DNA of 64,000 nt from Chiloscyllium plagiosum (GCF_004010195.1 NC_057755.1:11676580-11740579), one strand, 5' to 3'. Shown: positions 5,401 to 62,425, numbered from the stretch's first letter. Translations and numbers: made by a program. The notes: a model not told the origin generated them from the letters alone.

Positions 5401-5455
5401 GCTATGAACCAAAAAAGCAAGTAAAAAGCATCTGCTCCCCTTTGCATGGAATTAA

Positions 5456-21312: not shown

Positions 21313-22002
21313 ACTAATTAGATTAGAAACTGTAGACATCACATGTTAGTATAGTCAGAAACTTACAGTATTTTTAGGTTGTTGTGTTGCTTATATAACT
21401 ACATTGCAAGAGGGAGATGAGTAGATTACCCTTTCCAGAAGAAGGTGTACAAAGTTAAAAATCCCACAACATCAGGTTATAGTCCATCAGGTTTATTTGG
21501 AAGCACTAACTTTCAGAGCGCTACTCCTCCTCCATCAGGTGGGTGGTACAATTACTGCTGGCTGAGACTTCTTTTTGGTTATATTTTTATTTAGCTTATT
21601 TTTGGTTGGAATCACTAAAGTGAGCAGTGGTGGACGAAGGGTGAGAGAATTCTGGGAAGAATGAGCCATTGAGATGTAGTTAGGTAAATGTACTCATAAA
21701 TCAAGGGGCACAGTGTAGCAGGAAGTGTGACATTACCTCCTAGTACATAATTTATAGGGAGAAAGTATGCTCACTGAAACTGTATTCTTCATTTTTTGTT
21801 TAAAGAAATAATCTCATGGGCTGCAGATAATTTAAATTATCAAACATATGCAGCTGCTCAGGTGAGCAACTCGCCTGCACACACCACAGAAAAATGACAG
21901 GGAACATTGCTGATGGTGGTGTCCTGTCACTGGAAGTGATGAGTGAGAGATATGAGGTGGTGAATTGAATAAGTGAATTGGAATTGTATGCTAAATCTCA
22001 CA

Positions 22003-22100
22003 GTCGAGAGTGTGGTGCTGGAAAAGCACAACAGGTTAGGCAGCTTCAGAGGAGCAGGAGAATCAACGTTTCGGGCATAAGCCCTTCATCAGGAATGAGG
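22003..22100 (-). mobile_element. Penelope-derived terminal fragment with intact hammerhead-like core
   Basis: Minus strand reads CTGATGA-A-GGGC-TTAT-GCCC-GAAAC-GTT (22092 to 22065). Confidence 0.75.
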
Positions 22101-22889
22101 CTTTTATGCTAAATCTCACGGTATTAAATGTTGAGATTTTACTGTAGGTTTACAATTAGTGAAAGCATTTCTGCCTTTATTGCCACATTATGTTAATTAC
22201 TTCGGGATCTTGTGTAAAGTCTCAAATATTAGTGAAATGGGTTATATATAATGTCCTTGTTTCTGATCTATGTTTCTGCTCCATAATCTGTATTGCTGTA
22301 TTTCTCACTTTTGTACTTGGTGACAATCACCAACATTACCATCTTTTCCTGTTGAGGTGCTTTGCTCTGCCTTTGGGGTCAGGTCCAATGCTGAGAGTGC
22401 TGAATTCCAGGAGTTTCATGACAAAGTGCTCACGGCAAGCTGAATTTGTATTTTTTAAACATTCACGAATGGGACGTGGACATTGCTGGCTTGCCACTAC
22501 TTTTTATTGACTGTCCCTAGTTGCCCTTGAGAAGGTGGTGGTGAGCTACCTCCTTGAACTGCTGCAGTCCACACTTCTTGACTTCTGTTATTTGTGGAGT
22601 CTTTGGAGAAGGAATATTGGGACAAGAGAAGACCGTTTGGCTCCTTAAGTATGTTCTGCTATTTGGTGAGTTCATGGCTAGCCAACAGCCCAACCTGACA
22701 TACCATTGACCTGTGCCCTTTAAAATCAAATTTTAAATGAATGTTGATCCATCATTAATTGCTAATTTCAGAAGAGTTGAAGTTTCGACCATTGTTTGTA
22801 GAAGTGTTTGTTAACTTCACCCCTGAAAGATTTGGCTTTTTGTTTAGATAATGCCTCTGAGTTCAAGACTTCCCAACCCAATCGTACAA

Positions 22890-23360
22890 ACGTAGAAACA
22901 TAGAAAATGGGATCAGGAGTAGGCCATTCAGCCCTTTGACCATGCTGCATATTTTTATATGGTCATGGCTTATCATCTTACTCTATATGCTGTTCACGCT
23001 TTTACTGCATGCCCTTTAAGCCCTTTTCTCCAAAAGCTACGTCTAAATCTTTGAAAATGTTCAATGTTTGATCTCAACTGTTGTTTTTGGCAGAGCTGAC
23101 GACTCTCTGGGTGTAGAAATATTTACTCATCGTAGTCCTAAAACCTTAAGTTGGGACCCTAGTCCTGGACTCTGTAGTCATCGAGAACATACTTGCTGCC
23201 TTTACCCTGTCTCGTACTGTTAGAGCTTTATAGGTTTCTGAGATCACACCTCATTTTTTGAAATAACAGTAAATATAGTCCTGGCTGATTCAATTTCTCT
23301 TCATAGTCTACCCTGCTATCTCAGGAATCTGTCTGTGAAACCTTTGTAGCACACTTTCCA
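22890..23360 (-). mobile_element. Old CR1 3' end
   Basis: TAGAAACATAGAAA tail and AGGAGTAGGCCATTCAGCCC, typical of a reverse-oriented CR1 3'UTR. Confidence 0.65.
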
Positions 23361-23361
23361 T

Positions 23362-23897
23362 GTATGTAGGTTTGCTCGCTGAGCTGGAAGGTTCATTTTC
23401 AGACGTTTTGTCACCATACTAGGTAACATCTTCTGTGAGCCTCCACTGCTGATGATTCCTGCTTTTTATTTATATGTTTGGGTTTCTTTTGGGTTGTTGA
23501 TGTCATTTCCTGTTCTTTTTCTCAGTGGGTGGTAGATTGGGTCGAAGTTAATGTGTTTGTTGATAGAGTTCTGGTTGGAATGCCATGCTTCTAGGAATTC
23601 TCGTGCTTGACTCTGTTTGGCTTGTCCTAGGATGGATGTGTTGTCCCAAATGAAGTGGTGACCTTCCTCATCTGAATGTAAGGATACTAGTGAGAGAGTG
23701 TCATGTTGTTTTGTGGTTAGTTGATGTTCATGTATCCTGGAGGCTAGTTTTCTGCCTGTTTGTCCAATGTAGTGTTTGTTACAGTTCTTGCACAGTATTT
23801 TGTAAATGACATTAGTTTTGCATGTTGTCTGTATAGGGTCTTTCAAGTTCATTAGCTGCTGTTTTATTGTGTTGTTGGGCTACCATGATGCCAGGGG
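23362..23897 (-). mobile_element. Penelope-like element 3' end: GIY-YIG endonuclease and terminal repeat
   Basis: ORF 23466-23852: NVIYKILCKNCNKHYIGQTGRKLASRIHEH...REFLEAWHS...IN. Confidence 0.9.
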
Positions 23898-24095
23898 ATG
23901 TTGTGAAACTTGAAAGAGTTCAGAAAAGAATTACAAGGATGTTGCCTGAGGGATCATTTTGCTCAGAATAACTCTGTCAGGAGAGGTTTTCTTTGGCTTT
24001 AATTTCCTTGATCATTTCTGTGTGAAGAGACAGCAGCGAATAGAAATGATTCCATTGCTTTTTGATTTTCACAATGTTGTCAATTTGTTTTCCAG

Positions 24096-24140
24096 CAATA
24101 CCAGCAGCCCCAGCAGACCATTTACAGTGTGCAGCAACAG
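24096..24140 (+). CDS. CCAR1: CCAR1 exon 4 (45 nt)
   Basis: QYQQPQQTIYSVQQQ; TTTTCCAG| and CAG|GTTTGT; phase 0/0. Confidence 0.92.
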
Positions 24141-24629
24141 GTTTGTGCCATTTTGCTTTTGAGAAAAGTTTGGCTGGAGTGAGTGGAGCAGATTGCCGTT
24201 ATTAATGTTATACAGATTAATGTTATACAGATTGCCGTTATACAGATGTCCTTATTTACTGCGATTGACCTTGCTTTGCAATTAAGTTTTACCTGAGCAT
24301 TCTTGTTGATTTAATAATTTGTGAAAATTGATAAACAGTTGTGAATTATAAATATTTTCTATTCATAAAGTGCTCATAAAATGTGTATGATATGATCTGT
24401 ATCCCTCTATTCCCTGTCTGTTCATGTATTTGTCTAAATTCCTCTTAAATGTTGCTGAATTAACTGTTTCTACCATCTGCCCTGGCTGCATGTTCCCAGA
24501 ACCTACTACCCTCTGTGTACAAAAAAAAGTCTTACACATCTCTTAAATTTTCCCTTTTAATCTTAAACCTACAGCCCTAATATTTGACGTTTCCAGCTAT
24601 GAAAAACACTGACTATCCACCTTATCCAT

Positions 24630-25100
24630 GATGTGGAGGTGCTGGTGTTGGACTGGGGTGGGCAAAGTATAAAAATCATATAACACTAAGTCATAGTCCA
24701 GCAGGTTTATTTGCAAGTACTCGCATTCGGGGCGCTGCTCCTTCATCAGGTAGCTGTGGAGTAGGATCATAAGACACAATTTATATCAAAACATCACAGT
24801 GTTATGCACCTGAAATGATATATTGAACAAACCTAGATTGCTGTTAAGTCTTTCATCTTTTCAGATGGGTTGCAGCATTCTGTTCATTAATACATAAATC
24901 CCAGAACTACCCTCAATCACATTCTTGCGATAACTTCAGGTTTTATTTGAAAAAAGGACATCTCAGCTCAGACAATGCATTAAAGTTTGGGATACAGGCA
25001 GACTCTAACCTCACACCTTTAGTACATTGTCTGAGCTGAGATGTCACTTTTCAAAGTAAACTGTTAAGTTATCTCAAGAATGTGACTTGAAAGAAGTTCT
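24630..25100. mobile_element. Penelope-derived non-autonomous repeat with internal palindrome
   Basis: Minus-strand CTGATGA-A-GGAGC-AGC-GCCCC-GAA at 24749-24726; inverted arms ACATCTCAGCTCAGACAATG / CATTGTCTGAGCTGAGATGT within 24900-25100. Confidence 0.6.
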
Positions 25101-25109
25101 ACAAGAGAT

Positions 25110-26882
25110 CAGTGAGGTCCTCAATGTTTACCATGGAGACATGAACACTTCAGAATTAGCGAAAGGTAGTGGTCATATCTTGGGGGCCGTCCATATCGCA
25201 GTTATATGGTCCTGACCAGATATATCCACAAACGTGGCAAGAGGCTAGTGAAGAAATTGCAGGGGCCCTGGCTGATATATTTGCATTATCATTAGCCACG
25301 CATGAGGTCCCAGAAGACTGGAGAATAGCAAATGTTGTGCCCTTATTCAAGAAGGAACTGCAGACCAGTAAGGCTAATGTCTGTGGTAGGTAAGTTACTT
25401 GAGAAGATTCTGAGATAAAATATAAATGCATTTGGAAAGACAAGGAATGGACAGCATGGCTTTGTCTATGGGAAATCATGCTTCATAAATTTGTTTGAGT
25501 TCTTTGATAAAGTGACCAGGAAGGTTGATGAAGGTGGTAGACGTCTATACGGACTTTAGTAAGGCCTTTGATAAGTTTCAACATGGGAGGCTGCTCTGGA
25601 AAATTAGATTGGATGGAATCCAAGGGGAGGTGGCAAGCTGGACACTCAATTGGCTTCATGGTAGGAGGCAGAGGGTAATAGTGGGAGGATGCTTGTCAGA
25701 CTGGAGGCCTGTGACTCGTGAAGTACCTCGGGTCAGTCCTGGGCCCGTTGCTGTTTGTTATTTATATCAATGATTTGGATGAGAATGTCCAAGGCATGGT
25801 TAGTAAATTTGCAGATGATGCTAAAATAGCAGTATCGTGGACAGTGAGGAAGGTTGTCAGAAACTTCAGCAGGACCTTGATCAGCTGGGAAATTGGGCCA
25901 AGAAATGGCAAATAGAGTTTAATATAGATAAGTGTGAGGTCTTGCATTTTGGAAAGTCAAATCAAGAAGGGAGTTTCTTGGTGAATGGTAGGGCCTTAAG
26001 GTGTATAGTGGAACAGAGGGACCTTGGAGTTCAGATTCACAGTTCTCTGAAGGTGGAGTCACAGGTAGACAGGGCAGTGAAGAAGGCTTTTGGCACACTG
26101 GTCATTGAGTATCAAAGTTGGGAGGTTATGTTGCAGTTATGTAGGATGTTGGTGAGGCTGCACTTGGAGTATTGTGTTCAGTTTTGGTTACCTTGCTTTT
26201 GGAAGACTGTTATTAAACCGGAAAGAGTGCAGAAGATATTTACAAGGTTGTTGCTGGGACTCAAAGGTCTGAGTTATAGGGAATGATTGGACAAGATTGG
26301 ACTCTTTTTCTTTAGAGCGTAGGAGACCAAGAGGGGATCTTATAGAAGTGTATAAGATTATGAGAGGTTTGGATAGGGTGAATGCATTCAGTCTTTTTCC
26401 CAAGGTTGAGAATCAAGAACTAGAGGGTATCAGTTTAAGGTTAAAGGGGAAAGGTTAAAAGGGAAGCTGACAGACAACGTTTTTACACATAGGGTGGTGT
26501 GCATATGGGATGAGCTGCCAGTGGAAGTGGTTGAGGTGGGTAGATTAGATTAGATTACATTAGATTAGATTACATTACAGTGTGGAAACAGGCCCTTCGG
26601 CCCAACAAGTCCACACCGACCTGCCGAAGCACAACCCACCAATACCCTTACATTTACCCCTATTTACCCCTATACCTAACACTATTGGCAATTTAGCGTG
26701 GCCAATTCACTTGACCTGCACATCTTTGGACTATGGGAGAAAACCGGAGCACCCAGAGGAAACCCACGCAGACACTGGGAGAACGTGCAAACTCCACACA
26801 GTCAATCGCCTGAGGTGGGAATTGAACCCGGGTCTCTGGCGCTGTGAGGCAACTGTGCCACCGTGCCGCCCTACCATTTAAA
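25110..26882 (+). mobile_element. CR1 LINE ORF2 (RT) fragment
   Basis: VPEDWRIANVVPLFKK, DFSKAFDK, GSVLGPLLFVIYINDLD, SKFADDAK, HLEYCVQFW. Confidence 0.9.
26543..26871 (-). mobile_element. HE1-like V-SINE nested in CR1
   Basis: Reverse-complement SINE with (ATTAG)n tail. Confidence 0.9.
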
Positions 26883-27799
26883 AACGTTTTTGCGCACTTA
26901 GGTCTAGGTGCATCTTTTATTTTTAACAAAATTTATGCAGATCAATGAAGAGCTACCCTTTTTTCTACTCTTTCTTGGGATGAGGAAATATCTGCCGAGG
27001 CCAGCATCTATTGCCCAATCCTGATTGACCTCAAGAAAATAGTAATGAGCTGCTTTCTTGAATAACTGAAGTTCATGCTTTTGACCCAGCAGCAGTGAAG
27101 GAATGGTGATTATAGTTCCAGGACAGATGATTAGTGACGTGGAGAGAACCTTGCAAATCCTGGTGTTACCATAAATGTGCTGCCTCTTCAAGGTGGTGGA
27201 GGTTGCAGATTGGGAAAGTGCTGTTAAAGGACCCTTTGTGAGTTTTTATAGTGCACCTGCCACTGTGAATTGGTGAGGGAAGTCAATAGCACCACTTATA
27301 ATCAAGCAGACTGCTTTGACCTTGATGATGCCAAATGTCTTGAGATTGTTGGATCTGTACTCATTACACAAATGGGTACATGAACAACATTTAAAAGGCA
27401 TTTGGATAAATGCCTGGATAGGAAAGATGTAAAAGGATATGGGCCAAGTGCAGAAAAATGGGGTTAGCATGGATGGATGTTTTGGTCGGCATGTGCCAGT
27501 TTGGACCAAAAGGCCTGTTCCTGTGCAGTAGGACTGAATGACTCTAAGCAAAATATTCATATAATATCTTGGTCTCTGGTAAATCCCCCTTCAGTACTTG
27601 TTGTTTGCTTCCCTATTTGGGTTTTCAGTTCTCCTGTGAACTGTCTATAGTCAATCTCATCTTCAGCTTATTTTATCTTTTTTGTAATATAGGGACCTCT
27701 TGATTTTTATGCTCTATTTTTGTCTTTCTTGGGAATATATCTTGATTGTACCTGAATCAGCTCCTCTTAAACGATGTTGCATATTTGCACCTCAAATGA

Positions 27800-29500
27800 C
27801 TGATCTCCCATCCACCGCCTCCAACCTCATAGTCCCACAACCCCACACCGCCTGTTTCTACCTCCTGCCCAAATTCCACAAACCTGACTGCCCCGGCCGA
27901 CCCATTGTCTCAGCCTGCTCCTGCCCCACCGAACTCATCTCTGCATACCTCGACACTGTCCTGTCCCCCTTAGTCCAAGAACTCCCCACCTACTTTCGGG
28001 ACACCACCCACGCCCTCCATCTGCTCCATGATTTTCACTTCCCCAATGCCTTATCTTCACGATGGACATCCAGTCCCAATACACTTCCATCCCCCATCAT
28101 GAAGGCCTCCAAACCCTCTGCTTCTTCCTTTCCCGCCGACCCAACCAGTACCCTTCCATTGACACCCTCCTTCGACTGACTGAACTGGTCCTCACTCTTA
28201 ACAACTTCTCCTTCCAATCCTCCCACTTGCTCCAAACCGCATGGGCCCCAGCTATGCCTGCCTCTTTGTTGGATATGTGGAACAGTCCATCTTCCGCAGC
28301 TACACTGGCACCACCCCCCACCTTTTGCTCCGCTACATCGATGATTGTATTGGCACTACCTCGGGCTCCCACGAGGAGGTTGAACAGTTCATCCACTTTA
28401 CTAACACCTTCCACCCCGACCTCAAATTTACCTAGACTGTCTCAGACTCCTCCCTCCCCTTCCTAGACCCCTCCATTTCTATCTTGGGCGACCGACTCAA
28501 CACAGACATTTACTACAAACCGACCGACTCCCACAGCTACCTAGATTACACCTCCTCCCACCCTGCCCCCTGTAAAAACGCCATCCCATATTCCCAATTC
28601 CTTCGNNNNNNNNNNNNNNNNNNNNNNNNNNNNNNNNNNNNNNNNNNNNNNNNNNNNNNNNNNNNNNNNNNNNNNNNNNNNNNNNNNNNNNNNNNNNNNN
28701 NNNNNNNNNNNNNNNNNNNNNNNNNNNNNNNNNNNNNNNNNNNNNNNNNNNNNNNNNNNNNNNNNNNNNNNNNNNNNNNNNNNNNNNNNNNNNNNNNNNN
28801 NNNNNNNNNNNNNNNNNNNNNNNNNNNNNNNNNNNNNNNNNNNNNNNNNNNNNNNNNNNNNNNNNNNNNNNNNNNNNNNNNNNNNNNNNNNNNNNNNNNN
28901 NNNNNNNNNNNNNNNNNNNNNNNNNNNNNNNNNNNNNNNNNNNNNNNNNNNNNNNNNNNNNNNNNNNNNNNNNNNNNNNNNNNNNNNNNNNNNNNNNNNN
29001 NNNNNNNNNNNNNNNNNNNNNNNNNNNNNNNNNNNNNNNNNNNNNNNNNNNNNNNNNNNNNNNNNNNNNNNNNNNNNNNNNNNNNNNNNNNNNNNNNNNN
29101 NNNNNNNNNNNNNNNNNNNNNNNNNNNNNNNNNNNNNNNNNNNNNNNNNNAACCCTCCAACCACACGGGATGAATGTAGATTTCTCCAGCTTCTTCATTT
29201 CCCCTCCCCACCTTATCTCAGTCCCAACCCCCGGATTCAGCACCGCCGTCTTGACCTGCAATCGTCTTCCCGACCTCTCCGCCCCCACCCCCTCTCTGAC
29301 CTATCACCCTCACCCTCACCTCCTTCAACCTATCGTATTCCCAGTGCCCCTCCCCCAAATTCCCTCCCCCTACCTTTTATCTCAGCCCACCTGGCACACC
29401 AGCCTCATTCCTGAAGAAGGACTTATGCCCGAAACGTCGATTCTCCTGCTCCTCGGATGCTGCCTGGCCTGCTTTGTTTTTCCAGCATCACATTTTTCAA
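27800..29500 (+). mobile_element. Penelope-like element (RT, N gap, 3' terminal repeat)
   Basis: [55 protein letters not shown]; terminal repeat with hammerhead-like core at 29411-29438. Confidence 0.9.
28606..29150. other. Assembly gap
   Basis: Run of N. Confidence 1.
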
Positions 29501-29569
29501 GTCTGATGTGATTCAATCCATGCATGTAAAGGGAGTAATGTCTAGATATTTCCAGCGGTCCTTATTGTG

Positions 29570-30466
29570 AACAGGTCTTAAATGATTTTGGAATACAGAT
29601 TCATAGCTCTTTGAAAATGGAGTTGTTGGGAGACATGGTAGTGAAGAAGGTATTGATGTGCTTGGTCATTGCATTGAGTACAGGAGTTGGGAGGTCATGT
29701 TGCAGCTGTACAGGACATTGGTACTTTTGGATTATTGTGTGCAGTTCTGGTCTCTTTGCTATAGGGACAATGTTGTGAAACTTGAAAGGATTCAGAAAAA
29801 ATTTACAACGATGTTGCCAGGTTGAAGGATTTGAGCTACACATCGTTCTGCAGTAACGCCAGTTTCATTAACGCGACTAACAAATTGGTGGCACTTTCTA
29901 AAGCGTGAATGTTTTAAATGTGTGTTGGCTATAACATGATTGCATCACCAACACTTTAAGCGCTGTTTCTGAAGTGCAATTTTACTATACACAGGCTTGC
30001 ACAAGAATGCAACCATCACATTATAGCAGAACTATCTGTAAAGGAAATGGCTGAATAAGCTGGACTATTTTCCCTAGAGCATCAGAGGCTGAAGGTTGAC
30101 CTTATATAAAATTATGAGGGGCATGGATAGGGTGAATGGTCAAGGTCTTTTCCCCAGGGTGAGGGAGTCCAGAACTAGAGGGCATAAGTTGATAGTGAGA
30201 GGGGAAAAAAATTTTAGAAGGACCTAAGGGGCAACCTTTTCATGCAGAAAGTGGTGCGTGTATGGAATCACCTGCCAAGGGAAGTGATGGATGCTGATGC
30301 AACTACAAAATTTAAAAGGCATCTGAAAGGGTATATGATTAGGAAGAGTTTAGAGGGATATGCACTAAATGCTTACAAAAGGTCTCTATTAATTTAGGTA
30401 TCGAGTAGGCATGGAAAAGTTGGACCAAAGGGTCTGGTCCCGATCTGTGCATGTCTTTGACTCTGA
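29570..30466 (+). mobile_element. CR1 3' fragment with nested MITE
   Basis: Similar to 3880-4860; tail TCTTTGACTCTG. Confidence 0.85.
29839..30038. mobile_element. 200-bp Tc1/mariner-type MITE
   Basis: TA|CACATCGTTCTGCAGTAA...TTATAGCAGAACTATCTG|TA: imperfect TIRs and TA duplication; the CR1 host resumes across it. Confidence 0.8.
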
Positions 30467-30781
30467 TCAGTTGTAGGGTTATAGTATCTTTGGAGTACAG
30501 AAAGAAGCCCTTTTGTCTATTCTGTCAGCACTAGTCATTTCCTCTTCCCAGCACTTGGCCCATAGCCTTGTAATCCAGGTTTAAATTTTACATTTGAATG
30601 CTGTAAATTGGCAACAAAAACAGAAGTTGCTGGAAAAGGTCTGCAGATCTGGCAACATCTATGAAGAGAAATCAGAATTATCATTTTGGGTCTGGTGAGC
30701 CTTCCTCAGAACCTTAGGTCCAGTTGTGAAGAAGACTCACTGGACCTAACACATGAACTATGATTTCTCTTACAGATTTCT

Positions 30782-31040
30782 CAGCACGAGGGGACATAGC
30801 TTTAAATTGAGGAATGATGTCAGAGGCAGTTTCTTTACTCAGTAGTAGGGGCATGGAACGCACTGCCTACAACAGTAGTAAACTTGCCAATTTTAAGGGC
30901 ATTTAAATGGTCGCTGGATAAACATATGGATGAAAATGGAATAGTGTAGGTTAGATGGCCTTCTGATTGGTTTCATAGGTTGGCGCAACATCGAAGGCCA
31001 AAGGGCCTGTACTGTGCTGTAATGTTCTATCTATTCTATG
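30782..31040 (+). mobile_element. Short CR1 3' end inside a palindromic Penelope-derived repeat (~30612-31085)
   Basis: GGGCCTGTACTGTGCTGTAATGTTCTAT tail; the flanks are inverted arms. Confidence 0.7.
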
Positions 31041-31175
31041 TAGGTGCTGCCAGACCTGCTGGGTTTCCTCAGCAACTTTTTGTTGTAAATTTTACTAGGT
31101 CTGCTGATACTTTGGCATTCACCTTTTTCTGGGTTTTAAGATATCTATATTTGGCCTGATTTCATTTAAAATTAG

Positions 31176-34727: not shown

Positions 34728-34913
34728 TGCATTGTGCACTTTGACTATCTGACTGGCTCCTGAACTCAGTCATGACCACTGAAGTGGAGTCAGTTCTGAT
34801 AGGTGGTCAAGGGAGTACTGTATTTTCAGAGTCTGGAGGTTGATGTGAATGATTTAGAAGTCTTCAGCATTGAGGAATTTGAATGTAAACGTTAACTTTC
34901 TCCTTTTCTTCAG

Positions 34914-34946
34914 CTGCAGCAGCCTCCACAAGCTTTACTTCCCCAA
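34914..34946 (+). CDS. CCAR1: CCAR1 exon 5 (33-nt microexon)
   Basis: LQQPPQALLPQ; strong polypyrimidine tract and CAG|; donor CAA|GTAAGT; phase 0/0. Confidence 0.9.
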
Positions 34947-51770: not shown

Positions 51771-52375
51771 GAATTGAGTTCAGGGGTTGGAAGATCATGT
51801 TGCGCCTGTACAAGACATTGGTTTGGCCACTTTTGGAATATTGCATGCAAATCTGGTCTCCTTCCTATCGGAAGGATGTTGTGAAACTAGAAAGGGTTCA
51901 GAAAAGATTTACAAGGATGTTGCCAGAGTTGGAGGATTTGAGCTATAGGGAGAGGTTGAATAGGCTGGGGCTGTTTTCCCTGGCACGTCGGAGGCTGAGG
52001 GGTGACCTTATTAGAGGTTTACAAAATTATGAGGGGAATGGATAGGATAAATAGGCAAAGTCTTTTCCTGGGGTCAGGGACTCCAGAACTAGAGAACATA
52101 GGTTTAGGGTGAAAGGGGAAAGATATAAAAGAGACCTACAGGGCCACGTTTGCACACAGAGGGTGGTATGGGTATGGAATGAGCTGCCAGAGGATGTGGT
52201 GGAGGCTGATGCAATTGCAACATTTAAACGGCATTTGGATGGATTTATGAATAGGAAGGGTTTGGAGCGATACGGCCCGGGTGCTGGCAGGTGGGACTAG
52301 GTTGGGTTGGGATATCTGGTTGGCATGGATGAGTTGGACCGAAGGCTCTGTTTCCCTGCGGTACATCTCTGTGAC
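51771..52375 (+). mobile_element. CR1 3' fragment inserted in the gypsy 5' LTR
   Basis: LYKTLVWPLLEYC...; absent from the partner LTR (CTGTCAAAAAGCCTGCTTCTTT at ~45532-45553). Confidence 0.9.
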
Positions 52376-52511
52376 TGCTTCTTTATACCCGAAACATTGG
52401 ATCATCTCATTGGTTCGAGGTTGGCAAAAAGAGGTTGAATTTTATTATCCTGGGGCATAATTTAAACAGGTTAGGTTTGAATTGTGGTCAAAACAACTCA
52501 GATATCTAGTT

Positions 52512-52823
52512 TGGGCGGTACAGTGGTTAGCACTGCTGCCTCACAGTGCCAGAGACCCAGGTTCAATTCCCACCTCAGGCGATTATGTGGAGTTTGCACA
52601 TTCTCCCCATGTCTGCATGAGTTTCCTCTGGGTGCTCTAGTTTCCTCCCACAGTCCAAAAATATGCAGGTTAGGGGAATCGACCATGCTAAATTGCCCAT
52701 AGTGTTAGGTGAAGGGGTAAATGTAGGGGAATGGGTCTGGGTGGGTTGCACTTCAGCGGGTCGGTGTGGACTTGTTGGGCCGAAGGGCCTATTTCCACAC
52801 TGTGACTAACTAATCTAATCTAA
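52512..52823 (+). mobile_element. HE1-like V-SINE inserted in the gypsy 5' LTR
   Basis: Full SINE with (TAATC)n tail; absent from the partner LTR. Confidence 0.9.
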
Positions 52824-54579
52824 TTTTTACTGCCAAATGTTACGTCTTCAATTTTCCAGTATACTCTGAAGCTGCTAGTCAGTCACATTTCAGATGCCTG
52901 CAAGCTCTCAGTACTAAACAGCTTTCGCTCTCTCTCAAACGTACAGTACACCTTCAACTTCATAACAATCTAGAATTAACATGACATGAACTGCAGTTAA
53001 ATATTTAATAGAACTCATCAAATAATAAAATGGTCAGGGAAGACCCCACAGATTCCTGTGCAAACCCCCTCCCTACTATAATGACTGAATTCATTAAAAT
53101 GGTGTTTCTCATTCTCATTTTTATAACTCCTTCCTTTAGAACTTCCTCAAAAGTCACACCGTCATGGACTCCCTCCATGATGCACAAGTCTGTTGCTCAG
53201 GTAGCTAAGTTTGGACTGGATTCCCAGGACTGAACTTGAGCATCTACTCTTGGGTAGTCAGCTCGCTTCACTCAACTGACAACACCCATGGGGCTTTTCT
53301 TAACTGCAATATTTCTCAGCTGCACCAAGCAAATACAACTTATGGGCTTCTTTCACCCTCACCTGCAGCTACACTGAAACATCAAGGATTTTCAGGGCGG
53401 GTTAAAAGTCCCAGCTGCCCTGATGTTTCCAGGGCTAATTGCCCATAGCCAACTTCAGTTCTTGTTCAGCATGGAGCCTTTGTCCCTACTGCCAACAACC
53501 TGACTGCTTCCCAGTTCCACATTTATAAACCTTCTGTTAACCTTCAGTTTCCGCAGCACAGCCGCACTGTTTCCTTTAAATAGCTGGGTCCTTCAGCTGT
53601 ATTTTTTTAAAAAATGGCCCAGGCATTCTTTTGCCAAAAGCAAGTTTTCGTAGGTGAGTTCACGTTTTGTAATACCCAGAGTGACATTTGCTGCATGTGA
53701 GTCTAGTTATTGCAAATGAGTCTCAATAAACTGTGAGGAGCCATGATAAATCCAGACCCTACAAATAAATCTGATTGAAAATTTGAACCAAAAAGAGAAA
53801 TTAGTAGGAATGCTTACGGGTTTCTGAGGGGATGGTTTTCGTCAGGCAGCAGCTATGTTGAGTAGAGGCAGGTTATTGTTCAAACTGCTTTGTTCAAACT
53901 TCCTGTATCCAGCATTCTGATTCTGTCCTTATCTGATTTCATTACATAATTCTTCCCCTACTTATGTGGCCTTAATTAGGACATACTACATTCATGCAAG
54001 AAGTACATTATCTGAATGGCTTCAGGTTTTCCTTGATTGCAGTTAGCTAATATTCCTTTGCTGATTGACTTAAAGTTGTTTTTCCAGACTAACACGATCA
54101 CTCATCCCGACCCACCACAGCTGTTTCCACTTGGTTACCGTGGGCTTTCTCTACTCCTTGCCAGACGCAGCCCCTCCTCACCTGACACACCACTCTGCCC
54201 TGTCTGACATGGCCCCTCTCCCCTGACCACTGTATCACCACCCCCCCTTAATCTCCAAGAGTTAAGGTTGATTCACTACCATTCACCTTCCTGATTCTTG
54301 GTGCTCCTCTGATTACTAGCTGCATCTCTAATTTTCCTGGACTTTTTGAGGGCTTTCAGTAGTGAATTCATCCACTAATGCGGGTTATACGGAGCTGGAT
54401 TGAGGAGACTAGCCCTAATCAGGAGTCAAAGGTGTGTTTGCACAGTATGTGTTTGTATAAAATTGTAGATGCATACATGTGAAATTTGTATGAGTATATA
54501 TGTGAATATGCATGCTTGACACTTCTGCCTCGATTGAGGGCAAGTCACTCAATTATTTTTCTTGTATAAAACTTCCTAG

Positions 54580-54757
54580 AGTCAGACTCAACCACTAATC
54601 AAGACGCCTCCAACTGTCATGCAGCCTCTCACACAGCAGCCGTATGGTGTTCCACCTCAGCCACAGTCTCTCTTGCAGGCATCTATGGCTGCTGCTCCTC
54701 TCACTCCTTTGCTGTCAGCACAACCTCAACCTTTGCTCCAGCAACCACAGCAGAAAC
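54580..54757 (+). CDS. CCAR1: CCAR1 exon 8
   Basis: SQTQPLIKTPPTVMQP...QPQPLLQQPQQK; CTAG| and AAC|GTAAGT; phase 0 to 1. Confidence 0.93.
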
Positions 54758-55093
54758 GTAAGTCACCAAAAGATCTGCATTCATAATCATAGTCATTGTA
54801 GATTAAATATATGTCACCCACTAGCCATACAGTGCAATTATAAACTATTATAGATATATAATATGTAATTTAGATTAAATATGGACCATGTATTCACAAT
54901 TTAAACATAAATCACCTACAAAATCTTTATTCACATCATTATGAATGGAACCTGAAACAGCCACAAAGTGCACTTTAGTCTACACACAAGTCGCCTGACA
55001 AATCTGGTTCTCAACTGTTTCTTATCAGACCTCTTTTTTTTAAAATATATTTCTGCACATCTCGTGCAAGACAATTTTTTTTACTTTGCACAA

Positions 55094-55333
55094 ATTAGAT
55101 TAACTTACTTACAGTGTGGAAACAGGCCCTTCAGCCCAACAAGTCCACACCAAACCTCCGAAGAGCAACCCACCCAGAGCCATTCCCCTTCACCTAACAC
55201 TACGGGCAATTTAGCATGGCCAGTTCACCTAACCTGCATATCTTTGGACTGTGGGAGGAAACCGGAGCACCGGGTACAAACTCCACACAGACAGTTGCCC
55301 GAGGCGGGAATTGAACCCGGGTGTCTGGCGCTG
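55094..55333 (-). mobile_element. HE1-like V-SINE, internally deleted and 5' truncated
   Basis: Reverse-complement SINE tail, core and B box. Confidence 0.85.
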
Positions 55334-56072
55334 TTATTAGTTTTCCAATTAAGTATCATTTTTACTTGCTTTAACGTGCGGCTTGTTGCTGATGTTAAGC
55401 AATCAAGATCTAGAGCCATCTTCCATCAGGACATACCTTTGTCACAATCAATGTTGAACAAAAGCTGAAAATGCTTGAAACATTGGTCAGTATCTGTGGG
55501 AAAGAAGTTTCATTGACCTTTAATGTTAACTCTGTTCCTCTCTCAGCAGAAGCTGTCTGACCTGTTAATTTTTCCAATTTTTCAATTTATATTTCCAGTT
55601 TCCAGCACCCTTTGAATTCCCTTTTGGGAATCCTGTCTTCATGTATTTGACAAAATGCAATAGCATGTCTTTAAAATTGAGCATTCCAATGTGTCTGTAA
55701 AATATAGGAGCACCTACTGACAAGGTTCTGAGTGTTTTGAACTGGATAACACTTCATTATGCAGTTTATGGCTGCAGGTTTGCTTCTCGCAGTGCTTCTA
55801 AGAGGGAGCATTTTGGAGAATCAAGTTGGAACATTCCAGAAGAAGGATTTATTGCTTTCACCTTGTTGAAAATTGTTAACAGTGCCTTGCTTATGTTAAT
55901 GCTGCTGCTTGATGATTGCTTCAAATTGTGAAAATCATGTTCCTAGGTCTGGTATCTCACACCATGAGCAGAACAAGCATTGCCAGAACACAGGTCACAA
56001 GTCATTTAAGAAGTGATATTTAATTTTATTTTAAGACAATTGCTCTGAACCTTGCCACTTTTCCTGTTACAG

Positions 56073-56202
56073 CTGGGTTGCTGCAACCTCCTGTACGAGT
56101 CATTCCACAGCCACAAGCTGTTCGAAGGATTGAACCACCATCCAGATTCATGACCCGGAATGAAAGACTTGAAATAACATTAACAAGGAAAGATGATCGA
56201 AG
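56073..56202 (+). CDS. CCAR1: CCAR1 exon 9
   Basis: (P)GLLQPPVRVIPQPQAVRRIEPPSRFMTRNERLEITLTRKDDR; phase 1 to 2. Confidence 0.94.
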
Positions 56203-56847
56203 GTACTGCAGATGACTCAGTGCTTGCAATAAAATCACAATTAAGTCACACTTCGCCCTAGCTTTCCTAGATCTCTTAATTTATTTTTGAATGATGTGGT
56301 AATTAGTTAAATTATTTTTGGATACAGAACATTCTAGAGCTAACCAACCTCAGTTGGGTCAATAATTTGAGCTATAGTTGTGCACATTGATGAAAACAGC
56401 CTCGGATTCCATTTTCAATCACGGCAAGCTCCTGTGTGCAGGATTTGTAGCAAATTCTGCTGTAATACTCCCTATGGAGAAGCAATTTGCTGGCATCGAA
56501 TGGTATTTGGATAATTAGGATAGGGATGCTGGTACCTGTATTTGGGAGACTAAACAGGTCACTTATGGGAAGAAGAATGGAGAATTCGATAATACGTTGT
56601 GCACAGCAGTATTTAACCCCACAGCACATTCTGCAATTTGTGACTCAAGATTTCTTGCACATCGTCAATGCACTTGAAAAACATTTGAATTTTTTCATTT
56701 TATTGTAGGTTTTAAACACAAGTTTTCTTTACATTTGGATGCCATTTAGGGTTGCAAGGCAACTTTCAACTTTTTTAACTCAAATGATGAGCTACAATTC
56801 TGCTTGAATCATGAAATCTTTTGTTTTCAAATTAAATTATTTTGTAG

Positions 56848-57009
56848 TCGTGAAAGAGATCGAGACAGGAGGCGTTCACGTGAACGGTCACCACAACGTA
56901 AACGGTCCCGAGAGCGATCACCACGGCGAGAAAGGGACAGGTCACCAAGAAGGCAGAGACGTGTGGTTCCTCGTTACACAGTTCAGTTCTCCAAGTTTTC
57001 TTTGGATTG
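56848..57009 (+). CDS. CCAR1: CCAR1 exon 10 (RS/RE-rich); gene continues beyond the window
   Basis: (S)RERDRDRRRSRERSPQRKRSRERSPRRERDRSPRRQRRVVPRYTVQFSKFSLD; phase 2/2. Confidence 0.96.
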
Positions 57010-57469
57010 GTATGAATACAACTGATTAGATATTATTAATGACTATTTTTCTGATCATGGCACTGCTTAGTAAACATTGACTAAGTTTTAGTGAGGTTTT
57101 GCCTTTATTGAAGTGACAAATGTTGATAGAGTTTTGCCCATTCTTAACTTGCATAAGAAAGGTGGCAGGTAGACCTCCATAACATCGAAAGTTACGTTCT
57201 TTCTAAATTGTGTCTTTCTCGTGTGTGCAATGCAGCTAAATATTGTGCCCATGCATACAACAGAATTATGGCACTATGCTTAAAAAGTGTGCTTGCATGT
57301 TTCCTTAGTATGTAAATAGAAATAATTCGTGATAAACCTGTCCCATGCCACTTCTAACCAGATGGTGACAACTTCAGTCAGCAGAAATGTTACTCACGAA
57401 TGATTAATAAAATTCATTTCAAATTCCTTTCCAATCTAATTTTTAACTAGTCATACATGGAAAGCACCT

Positions 57470-57542
57470 ATGGGTAATGATGTTTAATCCTATTCCATTA
57501 CTGAAATGATAGTGTGGAGAGAAAAAAAATCACTGAACCCAT
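57470..57542 (+). ncRNA. SNORD98: Box C/D snoRNA, SNORD98 homologue (18S rRNA Gm867 guide, human numbering)
   Basis: Terminal stem ATGGGT/ACCCAT; C box ATGATGT 57477-57483; guide TCCTATTCCATTA complementary to 18S UAAUGGAAUAGGA; D' CTGA 57501-57504; D CTGA 57533-57536. CCAR1 is the known SNORD98 host. Confidence 0.9.
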
Positions 57543-58081: not shown

Positions 58082-58828
58082 ACGTTTGGGGGCAGCTACT
58101 TTACTGGGAGTGTTTTGTAGGCCCCAAAGAGTCAGTGGGAAGTCGAGGAGCAAATATGTGGACCATTCACATAGGTGTGTAAGAGTAATAATCAGGTAAT
58201 TATGTAAGGGGATTTCAACTTTCCCAATGTAAATTGAGGTAGTCATAATGTAAAGGGCTTTAGAGGGGGTGGATTTCTTTGAAATATATCCAGGAGAGGT
58301 TTTTTGTAGAAGGCCCAACAAGAGATGGCACAGTGCTGTGTCTGGTTCTGGGGAAGAAAAAGCCGTACAAGTGTGTTAATAGTGAAGAAGATGGTTGAAG
58401 GTTACAGGAAGATACAGAAAGGCCGGTCAGAGTGGCAGATGATATTTAATCCTGATAAATGCGAGATGGTGCACTTTGGACAAAGAATCAAGATGAGAGA
58501 GTGTTTAAAAAAAATCGCAGGACATTGGGTAGCTTAGAGGAACAGAGGAATCTTGAGGTAATCATTCACAGATTCCTGAAGTCAGCAGATCACTGGAATA
58601 GGTTAATTAACACACCAAGCTTTTTCACTGTGGGTGGTGGAAATCTGAAATGCACTGCCTGGGGAGGTAATGCACACTGGAAACTTTAAATCTTTAAAAA
58701 ATATTTGGATTAAAAAAAATCAAGGATATGGAACAAGTGCAGGAAATTGGAATTGTAGTGGTAGTTATGTCAATCCAGACTTGATGGGCTGAAGGGCTTT
58801 CCTGAGCTGTTTGAATCTATGAATCTAT
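58082..58828 (+). mobile_element. Old, multiply deleted CR1
   Basis: EWQMIFNPDKCEMVHFG; tail TGAATCTATGAATCTAT. Confidence 0.7.
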
Positions 58829-60134
58829 TGTTTTTTTCTTTATTCACTCATGGGTCATGGATGTCCCTGGTTTAGCAAGCATTTCTTGCTCAACCCTACC
58901 TGAGAAGATGGTGGTGAGCAGTTGTGTTGAAACACTGCAGTCCATTTGCTGTAGGTAGTTAGACAATGCCATTAAGGACAGGATTCCAGGATTTTGGTCC
59001 AGCGACAGTGAAGAAATGATGATATATTTCCAAATCAGGATGGTGAGTGGCTTCGAGGAAAGCGTGAAGGTGGTGGTATTCCTGTATACCTGCTGCTCTT
59101 GCCCTTTCACATGGTTGTGATTGTGGGTTTGGAAGGCACTGTCCAAGGATTGTTTAATTTCTATAGTGTATCTTTTGCGAAGTGCACACTGCTGCTATTG
59201 AGTATTGGTGGTGGTGGGAGTGGATGTGGTGCCAGTTAAGTGGGCTGCTTTGTACTTCATGGTGTCAAGCTTTCTTGAGTTTTGTTGGAGCTGCATTCAC
59301 CTAGATAAGTGGGAGCATTTCATCACACTCCTGTTTTGTGCCTTGTGGTAATCCCTGGATGTTAATAGTGAGGGATTCAGTGATGGTAGCACCATTCTTC
59401 TTGGCAAACAGTGTAGCTCTGAATGAGGCAAAATATATATCTATTTCATTGGAGCTGTGGAATTCACCATCTTAATTATGCATTTATCATCTTCTGCCTT
59501 TCTACCCTGCTAATTGTCTAAGAATAACGTCATCACTATAGACCTAATGCTGGAGGTTTATGCTTAGGCAAGAGATGGTGTTTTATGCTTTTAAGATATG
59601 TGTAGGGACCCCACAGAGCTCAGGTTGATCCACAAAAGTTACAAAAGCAGTGAAGTTATGAAAAATCTGTGGTATGACCAAAACAGTTATGGGTGCCATG
59701 TTGCAGGAGGATATCAAGTCATTGTAACGTGCAACAAAGAATGATGAGAATGGTCCCAGGAATGTGCAACTTCAATTATGTAGCTAAATTGGAAACATTT
59801 GGACTACAGATCTCCTTGGAGAAAAAGCTGAGAGGCAGTTTCATTGAGGTGTACAAAATCACTGGGGTTTGGACGATTGGTAAAGCAAAGCTATTCCAAT
59901 TTGTGAAGGGATTGAAAACCAGAGGACACTGCTTAAAGGTAATTGGCAAAAATGCCATTAGGGACATGAATAAAAATATTATCATGCAGCGACTGCTTAT
60001 AACCACTAGCATTGTCGTTGGACTGTTAATCCAGAGACCCAGACAATATTCTGGTGACCAGGCTTCGAATCCCAGCACAGCAGTTGGTGGAAATTGAATT
60101 CAGTACAAATCTGGAATTGAGAGTCTAATATCAG

Positions 60135-62425
60135 TAGATGTGAAGCTGGAAAAGCACAGCAGGTCAGACAGCATCTGAGGAGTAGGCATGTCAAGGTTTT
60201 GGGTTGAAACCCTTCGTCAGGACTGAAAGGGGCAAGGGAGACCAGAAGTACATGGGGTGGGGGGGGGGCGGTGGTGAGGCTGGGGGAAGGTTAGGTGGGA
60301 TGGCAATAGATGGATGCAGGTAGGAGATTATTGTGATTGTTTAGCGGGAAGGGTGCAACGGATAGTTGGACAGGTTAGTTCAGGTCAGGGAGACAAGGAG
60401 GAGGGCAGGACATGAGATAAGGCTGGGGGTGAGGAGATTTGAAGCTGGTGAAGTTAACATTGAGGCCATTGGGCTGGAAGCTCCCCAGGCGAAATATCAG
60501 ATATTGTTCCACCACTCTGGCAGTGGAGGAGACCAAGGATGGATATGTCACCAGGGGAGTGGGAGGGGGGAATTAAAGTGGTTGCAACCAGAAACTTAGG
60601 TTGGTTGATGCGTGCAGATGATGTGCGAACTGGTCGCAGAGTCTGCATTTGGTCTCCCCAATATAGAGGAGACCACATCGGGAGCAATTGATCCATCGGG
60701 TTGGGTGAAAGGCAGGTGAATCTCTACCAGATCAGGAGGGATTGTCTGGAGACTTGGACAGAGATGTAGGGGCAGATGTTGCACCTCTTGTGGTTACAGA
60801 GAAAGGTACCACCTGTGGTGGAGAAGTTGGTGGGGAGTTTAGAGTTGACGAAGGAGTCTTTGAATGAATGGTCCCTGCGGAAAACAGACAGGGCTGCGGG
60901 AGGAAATATCTTTGGGGTTTGATTGTAGGTGGCGGAAATGTCAGAGGGTGATGCATTGGATTTGCAGGTTGGTGTGGCGTTACGTGAGGACTAGGGAGTC
61001 TCTATGCTTATTATTGTTGTGGGGAGGTGGTTTGAGGGCAGAAGCGCGGGAAATGGAGGAGATGCAGTTGAGGGCATCCTTACTTACTGAGGGGAAACTG
61101 CGGTAGTTAAAGTAGATATCTGCGATGTTCTGGAGTAAAACGCCTCATCCTGGAAGCAGATGCGGTGGAGGAATTGAGAGTATGATGTAGCATTTTTGCA
61201 GGAGAGTGGGTGAGAGAAGGTGTAGTTGAGGTAGGTGTGGGAGACCATGCGTTTGAAATAGATGTCAGTGGTGAGTTCCAGAGATGGAGAGGGAGACATC
61301 CAGGAGGGGGAAGATGGTGTCAGAAATGATCCAGGTGGAATTGAGGGCAGGGTGAAAGGTGTTGGTGAATTGTTCAAACTCCCTGTGAGCACAAGGCAGC
61401 ATGACTCAGTCATCAATATAGCGGAGAAAGAGGTGAGGGATGGTGCCTGTGTAGTTATGGAAGAGGAGCTGTTCCTCAAATCCTACAAAGCGTCCAGGTG
61501 TAGCTTAGGCCTGTGCGGGTGCACATGGCCATCCCTTTGTTTTGTAGGACGTAGGGGGAATCAAAGGAAAAATTGTTGAGGGTGAGGACCAGTTCTGCCA
61601 AGTGAATGGGTGTGTGGAATGGGACTGGTTGGTCCTTTGGGAGATGAAGAATTGGTGGGCTTTTAGTCCCTCCCTGTGGGGGATACAGGTGTAAAAGGCC
61701 TGTACATTTATGGAGAAGGTGAGGTGTTGGGGGCAGGAGAATTGAAAGTTTTGCAAGAGATGGAGGGCGTGGGTGGACCAAAAGGGAATGAACAGAGTCG
61801 AGGTGGGAGGAGATGAGCACAGTGGGTCAGGAGCAGACAAAAGACAGTGGTCACCTGGGGCAATTGAGTTTATGGATTTTGGGTAGGAGATAGAAATGGG
61901 CGGTGCAGGGTTGGGGAAATATCAGATTAGAGGTTGTGGATGGGAGATGTCCCAAGTGGTGATGGCCTGGGAGATACTGGCTTGGTGATCAAGGTGAAGT
62001 CATCATTGAGGACATGGTAGGAGGTGGTATTGGCGAGTTGGCATCTGGCCTCAGTGATGTAGAGATCAGTTTGCGCTCCCCTTCTCAGTGGGTTTAATAG
62101 TGAGGTTGGGGTTGGAGTGGAGGGTTGCGCGTTCCGATGAGGAGAGGTTGGCATAAGTGCCAGGGGTGGAGTGATCCACGTGATTGATGTTGTAGCGGCA
62201 GTTTAAGATGAAGTCGTCGATGGAGGGTAGGAGGCTGGGATTTGCCAGAGGCGGGAGAAGGGAACGTTAGAGGATGGGTTGGATTCCTGCTCGAGGAAAT
62301 ATGCGGATATGTGGAGGTGGTGGAAAAAGAGCATAACATCATAACATGAGTGGAATTCGTTCACATGTGGGTGTTGGGGAATGAAGGTGAGCCCTTTGCT
62401 GAGGACTGACCATTGTTGATTATCA
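60135..62425 (-). mobile_element. Decayed Penelope-like element (RT, GIY-YIG, terminal repeat)
   Basis: SVLSKGLTFIP, LAELVLTLNNFSFD, TDIYFKR..SH, frameshifted LYIGET region; homologous to 27800-29500; mutated hammerhead-like core at 60220-60193. Confidence 0.88.

What the first reader, a model, noticed from the sequence alone, without database searches (positions are those of the whole stretch)
21470..60225. Several distinct Penelope-derived families share one minimal hammerhead-like architecture across CCAR1 introns
Seen: CTGANGA + one extra base + helix II + GAAA + short palindrome recurs with different helix II sequences. Examples: GGGC-TTAT-GCCC (22065-22092 -, 29411-29438 +); GGAGC-AGC-GC(T/C)CC (24726-24749 -, decayed ~21505-21540 -); GTTACC-TAGTAT-GGTGA(C/T) (~23400-23436 -, 43173-43206 +); GGGT-TTCA-ACCC (60193-60220 -); and a decayed CTGAGGA-A-GGGTCAC type (~39830-39866 -, ~30675-30712 -). 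The core is shared while helix II changes but stays paired. Established: Penelope pseudo-LTRs carry minimal type I hammerheads lacking helix III, proposed to act as dimers. Inference: a dense, family-diverse ribozyme-like system in shark introns, including ORF-less carriers. Most copies here have core mutations.
Basis: partly seen in the sequence, partly recalled or inferred. Interest (0 to 1): 0.75.

Follow-up and report, generated by a model that had tools for sequence, protein, structure and literature searches.

The report
Penelope hammerhead stubs, genome-wide background
The tiny self-cutting-RNA (hammerhead) motifs in this gene's introns are the ends of known Penelope-type jumping genes that are just as common across this whole shark-type genome, so they are likely inert passengers here, although the ends of the copies likely record how these elements copy their own RNA.

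Summary
All nine motifs are present. They are the published minimal hammerheads of Penelope-like element (PLE) ends, from four families (Neptune- and Poseidon-type), with compensatory changes between families in helices I, II and III. They are not a CCAR1 system. The gene span has 13 copies against 14.9 expected from 119 sampled 10-kb stretches. Seven of the nine named motifs are antisense to CCAR1 and two of nine keep every core base. The genome holds at least 105,804 exact intact cores. The ORF-less copies look like by-products of insertion, not separate carriers. Their 5' ends pile up at the first base of helix I, often after an extra G (1,956 against 572 expected), not at the cut site. Of 72 head-to-head pairs, 68 have one long and one short end. 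Likely reading: run-off copies of capped, uncut RNA, primed from both DNA strands. Four of four U6 chimeras found join at the predicted cut, so the ribozyme likely does cut sometimes. The scan reported these same footprints before, on other DNA of this and other genomes; the U6 lead came from those notes. No cleavage assay was possible.

The parts
21441..21545 (-). Family B (GGAGC helix II) PLE end stub, hammerhead 21507-21538 with core change; antisense to CCAR1
   Evidence: family match starts 7-15 nt before the core
22002..22105 (-). Family A (GGGC) stub, the only copy passing the full descriptor (22065-22092); 14-bp target-site duplication; antisense to CCAR1
23342..23879 (-). Family C (GTTACC) Poseidon-type PLE 3' fragment: GIY-YIG remnant 23466-23879, TATAAA, mutated hammerhead 23402-23435, tail
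   Evidence: Pfam PF01541 E 1.3e-4
24627..24990 (-). Family B copy with about 236 nt of upstream element sequence and long tail; hammerhead 24722-24749 with two core changes
27688..29507 (+). Family A Neptune-type PLE fragment: broken RT (27688-28600), assembly gap, hammerhead 29411-29438 with full core and one helix II mismatch; the only intact-core copy in CCAR1 sense
   Evidence: RT recognised from motifs, Pfam gave no hit for 3 of 3 pieces
30596..30712 (-). Family D (GGGTCA) stub, decayed hammerhead
39739..39866 (-). Family D stub starting about 4-5 nt before the core, long tail, decayed hammerhead
43130..43282 (+). Family C stub starting about 43 nt before the core; hammerhead 43173-43206 with A6 changed; CCAR1 sense
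60111..61921 (-). Older family A variant (GGGT-TTCA-ACCC) at the end of a broken Neptune-type RT, Cys linker and GIY-YIG body; hammerhead 60193-60220 mutated
   Evidence: Pfam gave no hit for 3 of 3 pieces
5454..5662 (.).
6424..6658 (.). Head-to-head pair of family A ends joined at helix I, one long and one short arm, 7-bp flanking repeat
19934..20102 (.). Old head-to-head pair of family D tails in the intron after the first coding exon
31036..31087 (+). Weak family D tail fragment
   Evidence: E 9.6e-7
55502..55607 (+). Decayed family D copy
   Evidence: E 2.8e-11
19271..57010 (+). Host gene CCAR1, seven coding exons seen in this span; the gene continues beyond the window
57472..57540 (+). 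SNORD98 snoRNA in a CCAR1 intron
   Evidence: Rfam RF00607, 63.1 bits, over the cut-off of 50

Best explanation
These motifs are the hammerhead-bearing ends of four Penelope-like retrotransposon families that are as dense in the rest of the genome as in CCAR1, the short ones are likely run-off DNA copies of the capped, uncut front of the element's RNA, and in CCAR1 they are likely inert passengers. Shown: family membership, genome-wide density, compensatory pairing, two preferred 3' ends about 33 nt apart, a 5' boundary at the first base of helix I with an excess G before it, and one-long-one-short pairs with target-site duplications. Inferred: transcription starts at that boundary (an initiator-like TCATTC or TCAGTT, with a TATAAA or TTTATCT element about 30 nt upstream), so the hammerhead sits in the first 32 or so nucleotides of the mRNA. 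The RT-endonuclease nicks both target strands about 8-18 nt apart and primes at two internal RNA sites 65 and 100 nt past the cut site. It runs to the cap and copies it as a G. The product is then joined to the target (solo stub), to the second cDNA (head-to-head pair), or comes from the downstream repeat and runs on into the ORF (long fragments). The ribozyme is kept by selection on the active master elements and likely cuts a minority of RNAs, as the U6 joints suggest, but cutting is not on the main insertion path.
For: Density: 389 copies in 1,151,670 sampled bases (33.8 per 100 kb) against 13 in the 44,155-base gene span, 14.9 expected. Exact intact cores genome-wide: A 93,494, C 9,810, one B variant 2,154, D 346; reversed-pattern controls 0. 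PLE bodies: GIY-YIG next to 23402; RT, Cys linker and YIGET next to 60193; Cys linker in A and D loci and none in C loci; a C copy runs from the hammerhead into an ORF start. Pairing between families (358 core-anchored copies): first helix I pair C-G, U-A or A-U; third pair G-C, U-A or C-G within C; fourth helix II pair C-G (176) or U-A (33) in A/D; 15.2-16.2 C-G in A, C, D and G-C in B (60 of 63). 3' ends are bimodal in A, B and D. 150 of 389 copies lie in 75 head-to-head pairs. Of 72 scorable pairs 68 are long plus short, 36 expected, P 2e-16. Flanking repeats of 8 bp or more in 43 of 72, against 10 of 212 control spots. 5' ends: 47 of 96 paired A arms and 22 of 100 solo A copies end 25-40 nt before the cut; 0 of 43 solo D copies reaching the hammerhead share upstream sequence. 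G before ATTC: 1,956 (not preceded by G) against 2,129 with A or T, 572 expected from base composition; 12,258 copies keep the templated bases. G in 7 of 8 copies ending exactly there. No spike at the cut: 3 of 171 copies. RNA reads pooled over copies show loose ends at the same boundary (59 and 90 reads) and no listed pile of ends at the cut. U6 3' end joined at the first base after the cut in 4 of 4 hits, four different subfamily tails, and 0 hits with a longer gap. In print: two adjacent internal RT start sites, both strands cut and extended, unprocessed RNA as the main substrate (PMC11167929).
Against: No transcription start was mapped: the library used cannot show it, reads lay in both orientations, and the second run gave 0 reads. 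In many of the 30 G-ATTC loci the G also matches the target duplication or the opposite arm, so it could be microhomology; by eye it is clearly untemplated in only about 5 (L278, L286, L288, L291, L302). Boundary calls from local profiles are good to about 5 nt, and old subfamilies with diverged upstream sequence are scored as short. Family C mostly does not stop at the hammerhead: 10 of 13 solo copies run more than 200 nt upstream. The family A upstream element is not a canonical TATA. Helix I of family A is weak: U-U at pair 3 in 143 of 231 A/D copies. Minimum-energy co-folding gave the full canonical dimer for 0 of 5 motifs. The U6 sample is 4 matches of a 14-base motif, and whole U6 copies were not fetched. 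The background sample is not matched for gene content.
Confidence: 0.72

Rival explanations
1. The copies form a co-opted ribozyme system that processes or regulates the CCAR1 pre-mRNA.
For: One sense-strand copy (29411) keeps every core base. Hammerheads domesticated in introns of amniote genes are in print (PMC6155905, figure legend passage).
Against: No enrichment (13 against 14.9); 7 of 9 named copies antisense; 7 of 9 with core changes; no second intact sense copy of the same family within the coding span to dimerise with; minimal hammerheads are inactive as monomers in vitro (PMC4209133).
Confidence: 0.04
2. The ORF-less copies are independent non-autonomous elements (retrozyme- or SINE-like) that spread from their own templates through hammerhead cleavage and circles.
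For: Family D solos share no upstream sequence in 43 of 43 sampled copies. Animal retrozymes are described as PLE derivatives, also in one cartilaginous fish (bioRxiv 10.64898/2026.07.22.740005). A few same-strand neighbours exist.
Against: Retrozymes are tandem arrays; here same-strand same-family neighbours within 150 nt are 3 against 71 head-to-head pairs. Pair junctions differ from copy to copy. Ends do not fall at the cut site. Some young D copies do carry the upstream promoter-like region and PLE endonuclease.
Confidence: 0.1
3. The short copies are ordinary 5'-truncated insertions of long cDNAs that stall at the folded hammerhead and join by microhomology; the G excess reflects junction sequence and not a cap, and pairs arise by self-priming or fold-back.
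For: The hammerhead region is rich in short inverted repeats; many junctions show microhomology; ends are spread from -37 to -16 and not only at -32. Self-priming on an antisense template was proposed for PLE palindromes (PMC3846280).
Against: A 3.4-fold G excess at one position; promoter-like spacing of about 30 nt in A, B and D; fold-back of one cDNA does not explain why 68 of 72 pairs use two different 3' ends.
Confidence: 0.14

Closest known systems
Minimal hammerheads (min-HHR) in pseudo-LTRs of metazoan PLEs (Cervera and De la Pena 2014, PMC4209133; parts 1-2 of 4 read)
   Same: No helix III, one base between positions 9 and 10.1, G10.1-C11.1, palindromic 15.2-16.2, short helix I, many consensus families per genome, most copies solitary, some pairs on opposite strands.
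   Different: Sharks are not named in the parts read. Counts there are about 4,000 (coelacanth) and 9,000 (Xenopus); here at least 105,804 exact cores, but my patterns do not require helix I, so the numbers are not like for like. Helix II is 4-6 bp here.
Poseidon element PAc of the green anole (Frangieh et al. 2024, PMC11167929; parts 1-2 of 4 read)
   Same: Two RT start sites that define the tail; both strands cut and extended; uncut RNA as main template; ORF starting at helix II, as the sequence of family C suggests.
   Different: In vitro they saw no difference in start site between strands, whereas the genomic pairs here use one site each (68 of 72). They found no RNA ends at the cut site; the U6 joints here suggest some cutting.
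EN+ PLE insertions with inverted 5'-truncated pLTR and one-sided 30-40 bp tail (Craig et al. 2021, PMC8557442; Arkhipova et al. 2013, PMC3846280; passages read)
   Same: Inverted copy at the 5' end, tail often at one end only, target-site duplications of about 8-10 bp.
   Different: Here the commonest form is the minimal one, two arms of about 95-135 nt with nothing between, and the one-sided tail is close to a rule.
Non-LTR retrozymes (Li et al. 2026, bioRxiv 10.64898/2026.07.22.740005; part 1 of 5 and passages read)
   Same: ORF-less, type I hammerhead, PLE pLTR-related, present in a cartilaginous fish.
   Different: Defined as tandem repeats with a hammerhead in each unit; the copies here are solos or head-to-head pairs.
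U6/LINE-1 chimeras made by RtcB ligation (Moldovan et al. 2019, PMC6789731; abstract and opening read)
   Same: U6 3' end with a cyclic phosphate joined to a retroelement RNA with a 5'-OH, then retrotransposed.
   Different: Here the 5'-OH would come from the element's own ribozyme, at one fixed bond.

Membership tests
PLE minimal type I hammerhead | Catalytic core CUGANGA, GAAA and UH kept in the family master | tested here: met
   Exact intact cores in all four families; in the window only 2 of 9 named copies keep it
PLE minimal type I hammerhead | Extra base between 9 and 10.1 and a G10.1-C11.1 pair | tested here: met
   Extra A in A, B, D and U in C; first helix II pair G-C or G-U in 217 of 231, 60 of 63 and 62 of 64 copies (the extra base was part of the search pattern)
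PLE minimal type I hammerhead | Helix III replaced by a palindrome at 15.2-16.2 | tested here: met
   C-G in A, C, D with CpG decay products; G-C in 60 of 63 B copies
PLE minimal type I hammerhead | Short helix I (4-5 bp in the paper) with covariation | tested here: inconclusive
   Pairs 1-2 hold and covary in all families; B and C have 3 contiguous pairs; D about 4; most A copies have U-U at pair 3
PLE minimal type I hammerhead | Self-cleavage as a dimer | not testable with these tools
   Indirect only: 4 of 4 U6 joints at the predicted bond; co-folding uninformative
EN+ Penelope-like element | RT followed by a C-terminal GIY-YIG endonuclease upstream of the pLTR | tested here: met
   Window 23466-23879 Pfam GIY-YIG; 60221-61950 RT thumb, linker and YIGET; A, C and D loci. 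For B, one locus only, link uncertain
EN+ Penelope-like element | Optional 30-40 bp tail and inverted 5' copy | tested here: met
   3' ends at about +64 and +98 (A), +55 and +92 (B), +66 and +98 (D); 75 head-to-head pairs
EN+ Penelope-like element | Intact tandem pLTR-ORF-pLTR master copy | tested here: inconclusive
   None in the 4 candidate loci fetched; one internally deleted direct-repeat C copy with an ORF start
Neptune versus Penelope/Poseidon clade | Cys Zn-finger-like linker between RT and EN (Neptune) or its absence (Poseidon) | tested here: met
   Linker read by eye in A and D translations and absent in C; no tree was built
Non-LTR retrozyme | Head-to-tail tandem units, each with a hammerhead | tested here: not met
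   3 same-strand same-family neighbours against 71 head-to-head pairs in the sample; none in the window
Domesticated intronic hammerhead | Sense-strand, intact, conserved at an orthologous site | tested here: not met
   7 of 9 antisense and 7 of 9 core-mutated; orthologous conservation not tested

The most novel reading that the evidence does not exclude
This genome is a record of about a million PLE insertions showing that the hammerhead occupies the first 32 nucleotides of the capped mRNA, that the enzyme primes both target strands from two fixed RNA sites, one site per strand, and that the ribozyme cuts in the germ line only as a side route, acting as a self-decapping switch whose 5'-OH product can be caught by U6. 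That would explain the inverted pLTR and one-sided tail of the whole class and give the first in vivo trace of minimal-hammerhead cleavage in a vertebrate.
Probability: 0.4. Interest if true: 0.7.

Novelty: new member of a known kind. Interest (0 to 1): 0.4.

Why it matters
As a statement about CCAR1 it matters little: the gene carries the genome's ordinary load of dead PLE ends. The load itself is large, about 1.2 million ends and about 210,000 descriptor-intact cores by extrapolation. It makes two open questions testable from DNA alone: how PLEs build their inverted repeat and one-sided tail, and whether their weak hammerheads ever cut in vivo. The near-strict long-plus-short rule, the G at the helix I boundary and the U6 joints each predict a result for the existing purified PLE enzyme assay. 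The head-to-head pairs also put about 100-bp hairpins into many introns, three of them in this window.

Tried and rejected
Rfam scan: no hammerhead family among 11 hits; the mir-2329 and MIR533 hits are below their cut-offs and reflect long hairpins. Pfam recognised 1 of 7 PLE ORF pieces from the window. Idea that insertions end at the ribozyme cut: rejected, 3 of 171 family A copies end there, two of them arms of one insert. Idea of an upstream AAAAGCC pairing with loop 2 as a conserved tertiary contact: dropped, it is missing from the commonest young subfamily. Search for an intact master element in 4 same-strand candidate loci: none; one was a segmental duplication. Co-folding of 5 motifs as homodimers: no canonical dimer, treated as uninformative. 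Sequencing-run search: no RNA holder listed for the CCAR1 stretch. Lunse et al. on dimer cleavage was not held and is known to me only through the review PMC6765202 (passages). Literature searches: Penelope + shark + hammerhead ribozyme gave 1 paper, where 'shark' is only the name's origin; U6 snRNA + Penelope + hammerhead gave 0; Penelope + twin priming + inverted gave 2 listings on other subjects, not opened; Penelope + pLTR + promoter + initiator + transcription start gave 0; the cap and untemplated-G search listed 10 of 378 papers, none on this point by title. The library lacks most subscription papers, and no supplements were read; those of PMC4209133 may list shark motifs.


Full report
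Observation. A descriptor for a hammerhead without helix III finds 1 strict and 5 relaxed hits in the window, against 0 and a mean of 0.75 in 12 shuffles. Only 22065-22092 (-) passes in full; 29411-29438 (+) has the whole core with one helix II mismatch; the other seven have core changes. The host is CCAR1 on the + strand: seven coding exons between 19271 and 57010 (recognised from recalled peptide motifs), SNORD98 at 57472 and a DBC1 domain 25 kb downstream. Seven of the nine motifs are therefore antisense to the pre-mRNA.

Families. Profiles built from genomic copies sort the motifs into four tail families: A (GGGC helix II, including the GGGT-TTCA-ACCC variant at 60193), D (GGGTCA, tail related to A), B (GGAGC) and C (GTTACC or GTCACC). 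They find 17 copies in the window. Three named motifs sit at the end of broken PLE coding sequence: 23402 after a GIY-YIG remnant, 29411 after an RT remnant, and 60193 after RT, Cys linker and endonuclease motifs. Translations upstream of genomic copies show the Cys linker in A and D and none in C, which by the criterion in PMC8557442 makes A and D Neptune-type and C Poseidon-type; B rests on one uncertain locus. No tree was built.

Structure. In 358 copies anchored on core and tail without asking for pairing (all 306 held sequences, including query-selected loci, so the counts are descriptive), helix II stays paired while changing between families, the first helix I pair is C-G, U-A or A-U by family, the third is G-C, U-A or C-G within C, and the palindrome centre is C-G in A, C and D and G-C in B. 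Within families the changes are mostly one-sided CpG decay. Family A has a U-U at the third helix I pair in 143 of 231 A/D copies. This is the min-HHR of Cervera and De la Pena (PMC4209133), who also report many families per genome, mostly solitary copies, opposite-strand pairs, no monomer activity and low dimer activity.

Is CCAR1 special? No. I took 119 stretches of 10 kb at round coordinates on large contigs (a 120th, the next 10 kb of CCAR1, was kept apart). They hold 68 strict motifs in 1,151,670 called bases and 389 family copies. The CCAR1 coding span has 13 copies against 14.9 expected (P 0.37), 8 antisense and 5 sense, and the next 10 kb has none; the window has 1 strict motif against about 3.7 (P 0.11). 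The sample is not matched for gene content. Exact genome-wide counts of intact cores are 93,494 (A), 9,810 (C), 2,154 (one B variant) and 346 (D), with 0 in reversed controls. Extrapolation gives about 210,000 strict cores (163,000-266,000) and 1.2 million ends.

What the ORF-less copies are. Their 3' ends fall at two places about 33 nt apart in A, B and D, the known 30-40 bp tail (PMC8557442, PMC3846280), which matches the two internal RT start sites of the anole element (PMC11167929). Of 389 copies, 150 lie in 75 head-to-head pairs. Three pairs at stretch edges or gaps were dropped; of the other 72, 68 have one long and one short arm (36 expected, P 2e-16), and 43 have a flanking repeat of 8 bp or more against 10 of 212 control spots. 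The three pairs in the window are all long plus short. The 5' ends cluster at the start of the hammerhead: 47 of 96 paired and 22 of 100 solo A copies end 25-40 nt before the cut, while 41 of 100 solos run more than 150 nt upstream. Family C mostly runs further (10 of 13 solos). At the cut site itself there is no spike (3 of 171). In copies that keep the upstream region, the boundary is the A of TCATTC (A) or TCAGTT (D), an initiator-like word (consensus recalled), with TTTATCT 31 nt or TATAAA about 29 nt upstream; B has TATAAA about 30 nt before its looser boundary. A TATA and initiator-like pair in a pLTR is noted for a rotifer PLE, while Drosophila Penelope has a TATA-less internal promoter (PMC2377424, passages). 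For the main young A subfamily, 12,258 copies keep the templated bases before the A, 1,956 have G there (not preceded by G) and 2,129 have A or T; base composition predicts 572 G. An untemplated 5' G is the mark attributed to cap copying in L1 (PMC9341517, passage). Against this, in many of the 30 loci inspected the G also matches the target duplication or the other arm, and it is clearly untemplated in about 5.

RNA. One single-cell poly(A) run of the same species label laid 1,547 reads on a young A copy at 90% likeness; the second run laid none. Reads came in both orientations and ran on into unlike sequence, so they are mostly host transcripts through many copies. Loose ends pile at the same boundary (59 and 90 reads, heterogeneous flanks), opposite-strand joints start there, and no pile of molecule ends is listed at the cut. 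This confirms the boundary across copies but maps neither a start nor a cut.

Does the ribozyme cut? Earlier notes of this scan pointed to U6 chimeras. I tested this for the A and D tail motif: all 4 matches join the U6 U-tail to the first base after the predicted cut, with four different subfamily tails, and a longer gap reaching the start boundary gave 0. U6 ends in a cyclic phosphate and RtcB joins it to 5'-OH RNA (PMC6789731, abstract), which is the end a hammerhead leaves. Four cases of a 14-base motif is thin, but the position is exact.

Mechanism. Most likely the element is transcribed from a start at the first base of helix I. Its protein nicks both target strands and primes at the two internal sites, one per strand, on capped and uncut RNA. 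Run-off at the cap gives stubs of about 95-135 nt, joined to the target or to each other; priming in the downstream repeat gives ORF-bearing fragments. Selection on master elements keeps the ribozyme, which cuts a minority of RNAs. The copies in CCAR1 are dead products of this process. The start site, cap copying, strand-to-site coupling and in vivo cutting are inferred; density, ends, pairing and family identity are shown.

Earlier findings. I wrote the run-off, start-site and long-short readings in my notes and ran the G test before opening the scan's notes. Those notes show the same readings on other windows of this genome and in other genomes (177 findings hold my search words), so this is a repeat within the scan and not independent support.

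Verdict. The value lies in the genome-wide insertion footprints, which my searches did not find in print but which extend known PLE features and are not a new kind of system. New member of a known kind; interest 0.4.

Noticed in passing
window about 9000-15800 +: Broken endogenous retrovirus-like sequence upstream of the first CCAR1 coding exon: Gag p30 (11688-12113), protease and RT start (12414-13247), MLV-type integrase C-terminus (13189-13650) by Pfam. Described only.
   Followed up: partly
window 46291-49724 -: Decayed LTR-retrotransposon pol fragments (RVT_1 at 46870-47334, E 1e-23) with a SINE inserted at about 46300-46600.
   Followed up: no
window 24958-25044: An 87-nt near-perfect inverted repeat, about 200 nt upstream of the family B hammerhead; weak Rfam mir-2329 hit far below its cut-off. 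Possibly a MITE.
   Followed up: no
window 1-330: Three tandem copies of a 110-bp unit, 89-100% alike.
   Followed up: no
window 3600-4860, 25750-26540, 31450-34600, 42100-42900, 51760-52380: Many CR1-type LINE 3' fragments and a tRNA-like SINE family dominate the repeats (class names recalled).
   Followed up: no
L039 (- strand), L208, L220: Three family A copies continue past the long tail into the element's ORF start; the long end sits at a pyrimidine tract ending in CCTAG or CCTCG, which looks like a splice acceptor. Sense copies might offer cryptic acceptors to host genes.
   Followed up: no
G000:C1, family C matches listed: Many family C cores occur as minus-then-plus pairs 30-1,000 nt apart, so head-to-head pairs in this family have longer arms than in A, B and D.
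   Followed up: no
L272:2067-3348: Family C direct repeats 1.2 kb apart with an ORF that starts inside the hammerhead and an internally deleted body.
   Followed up: partly
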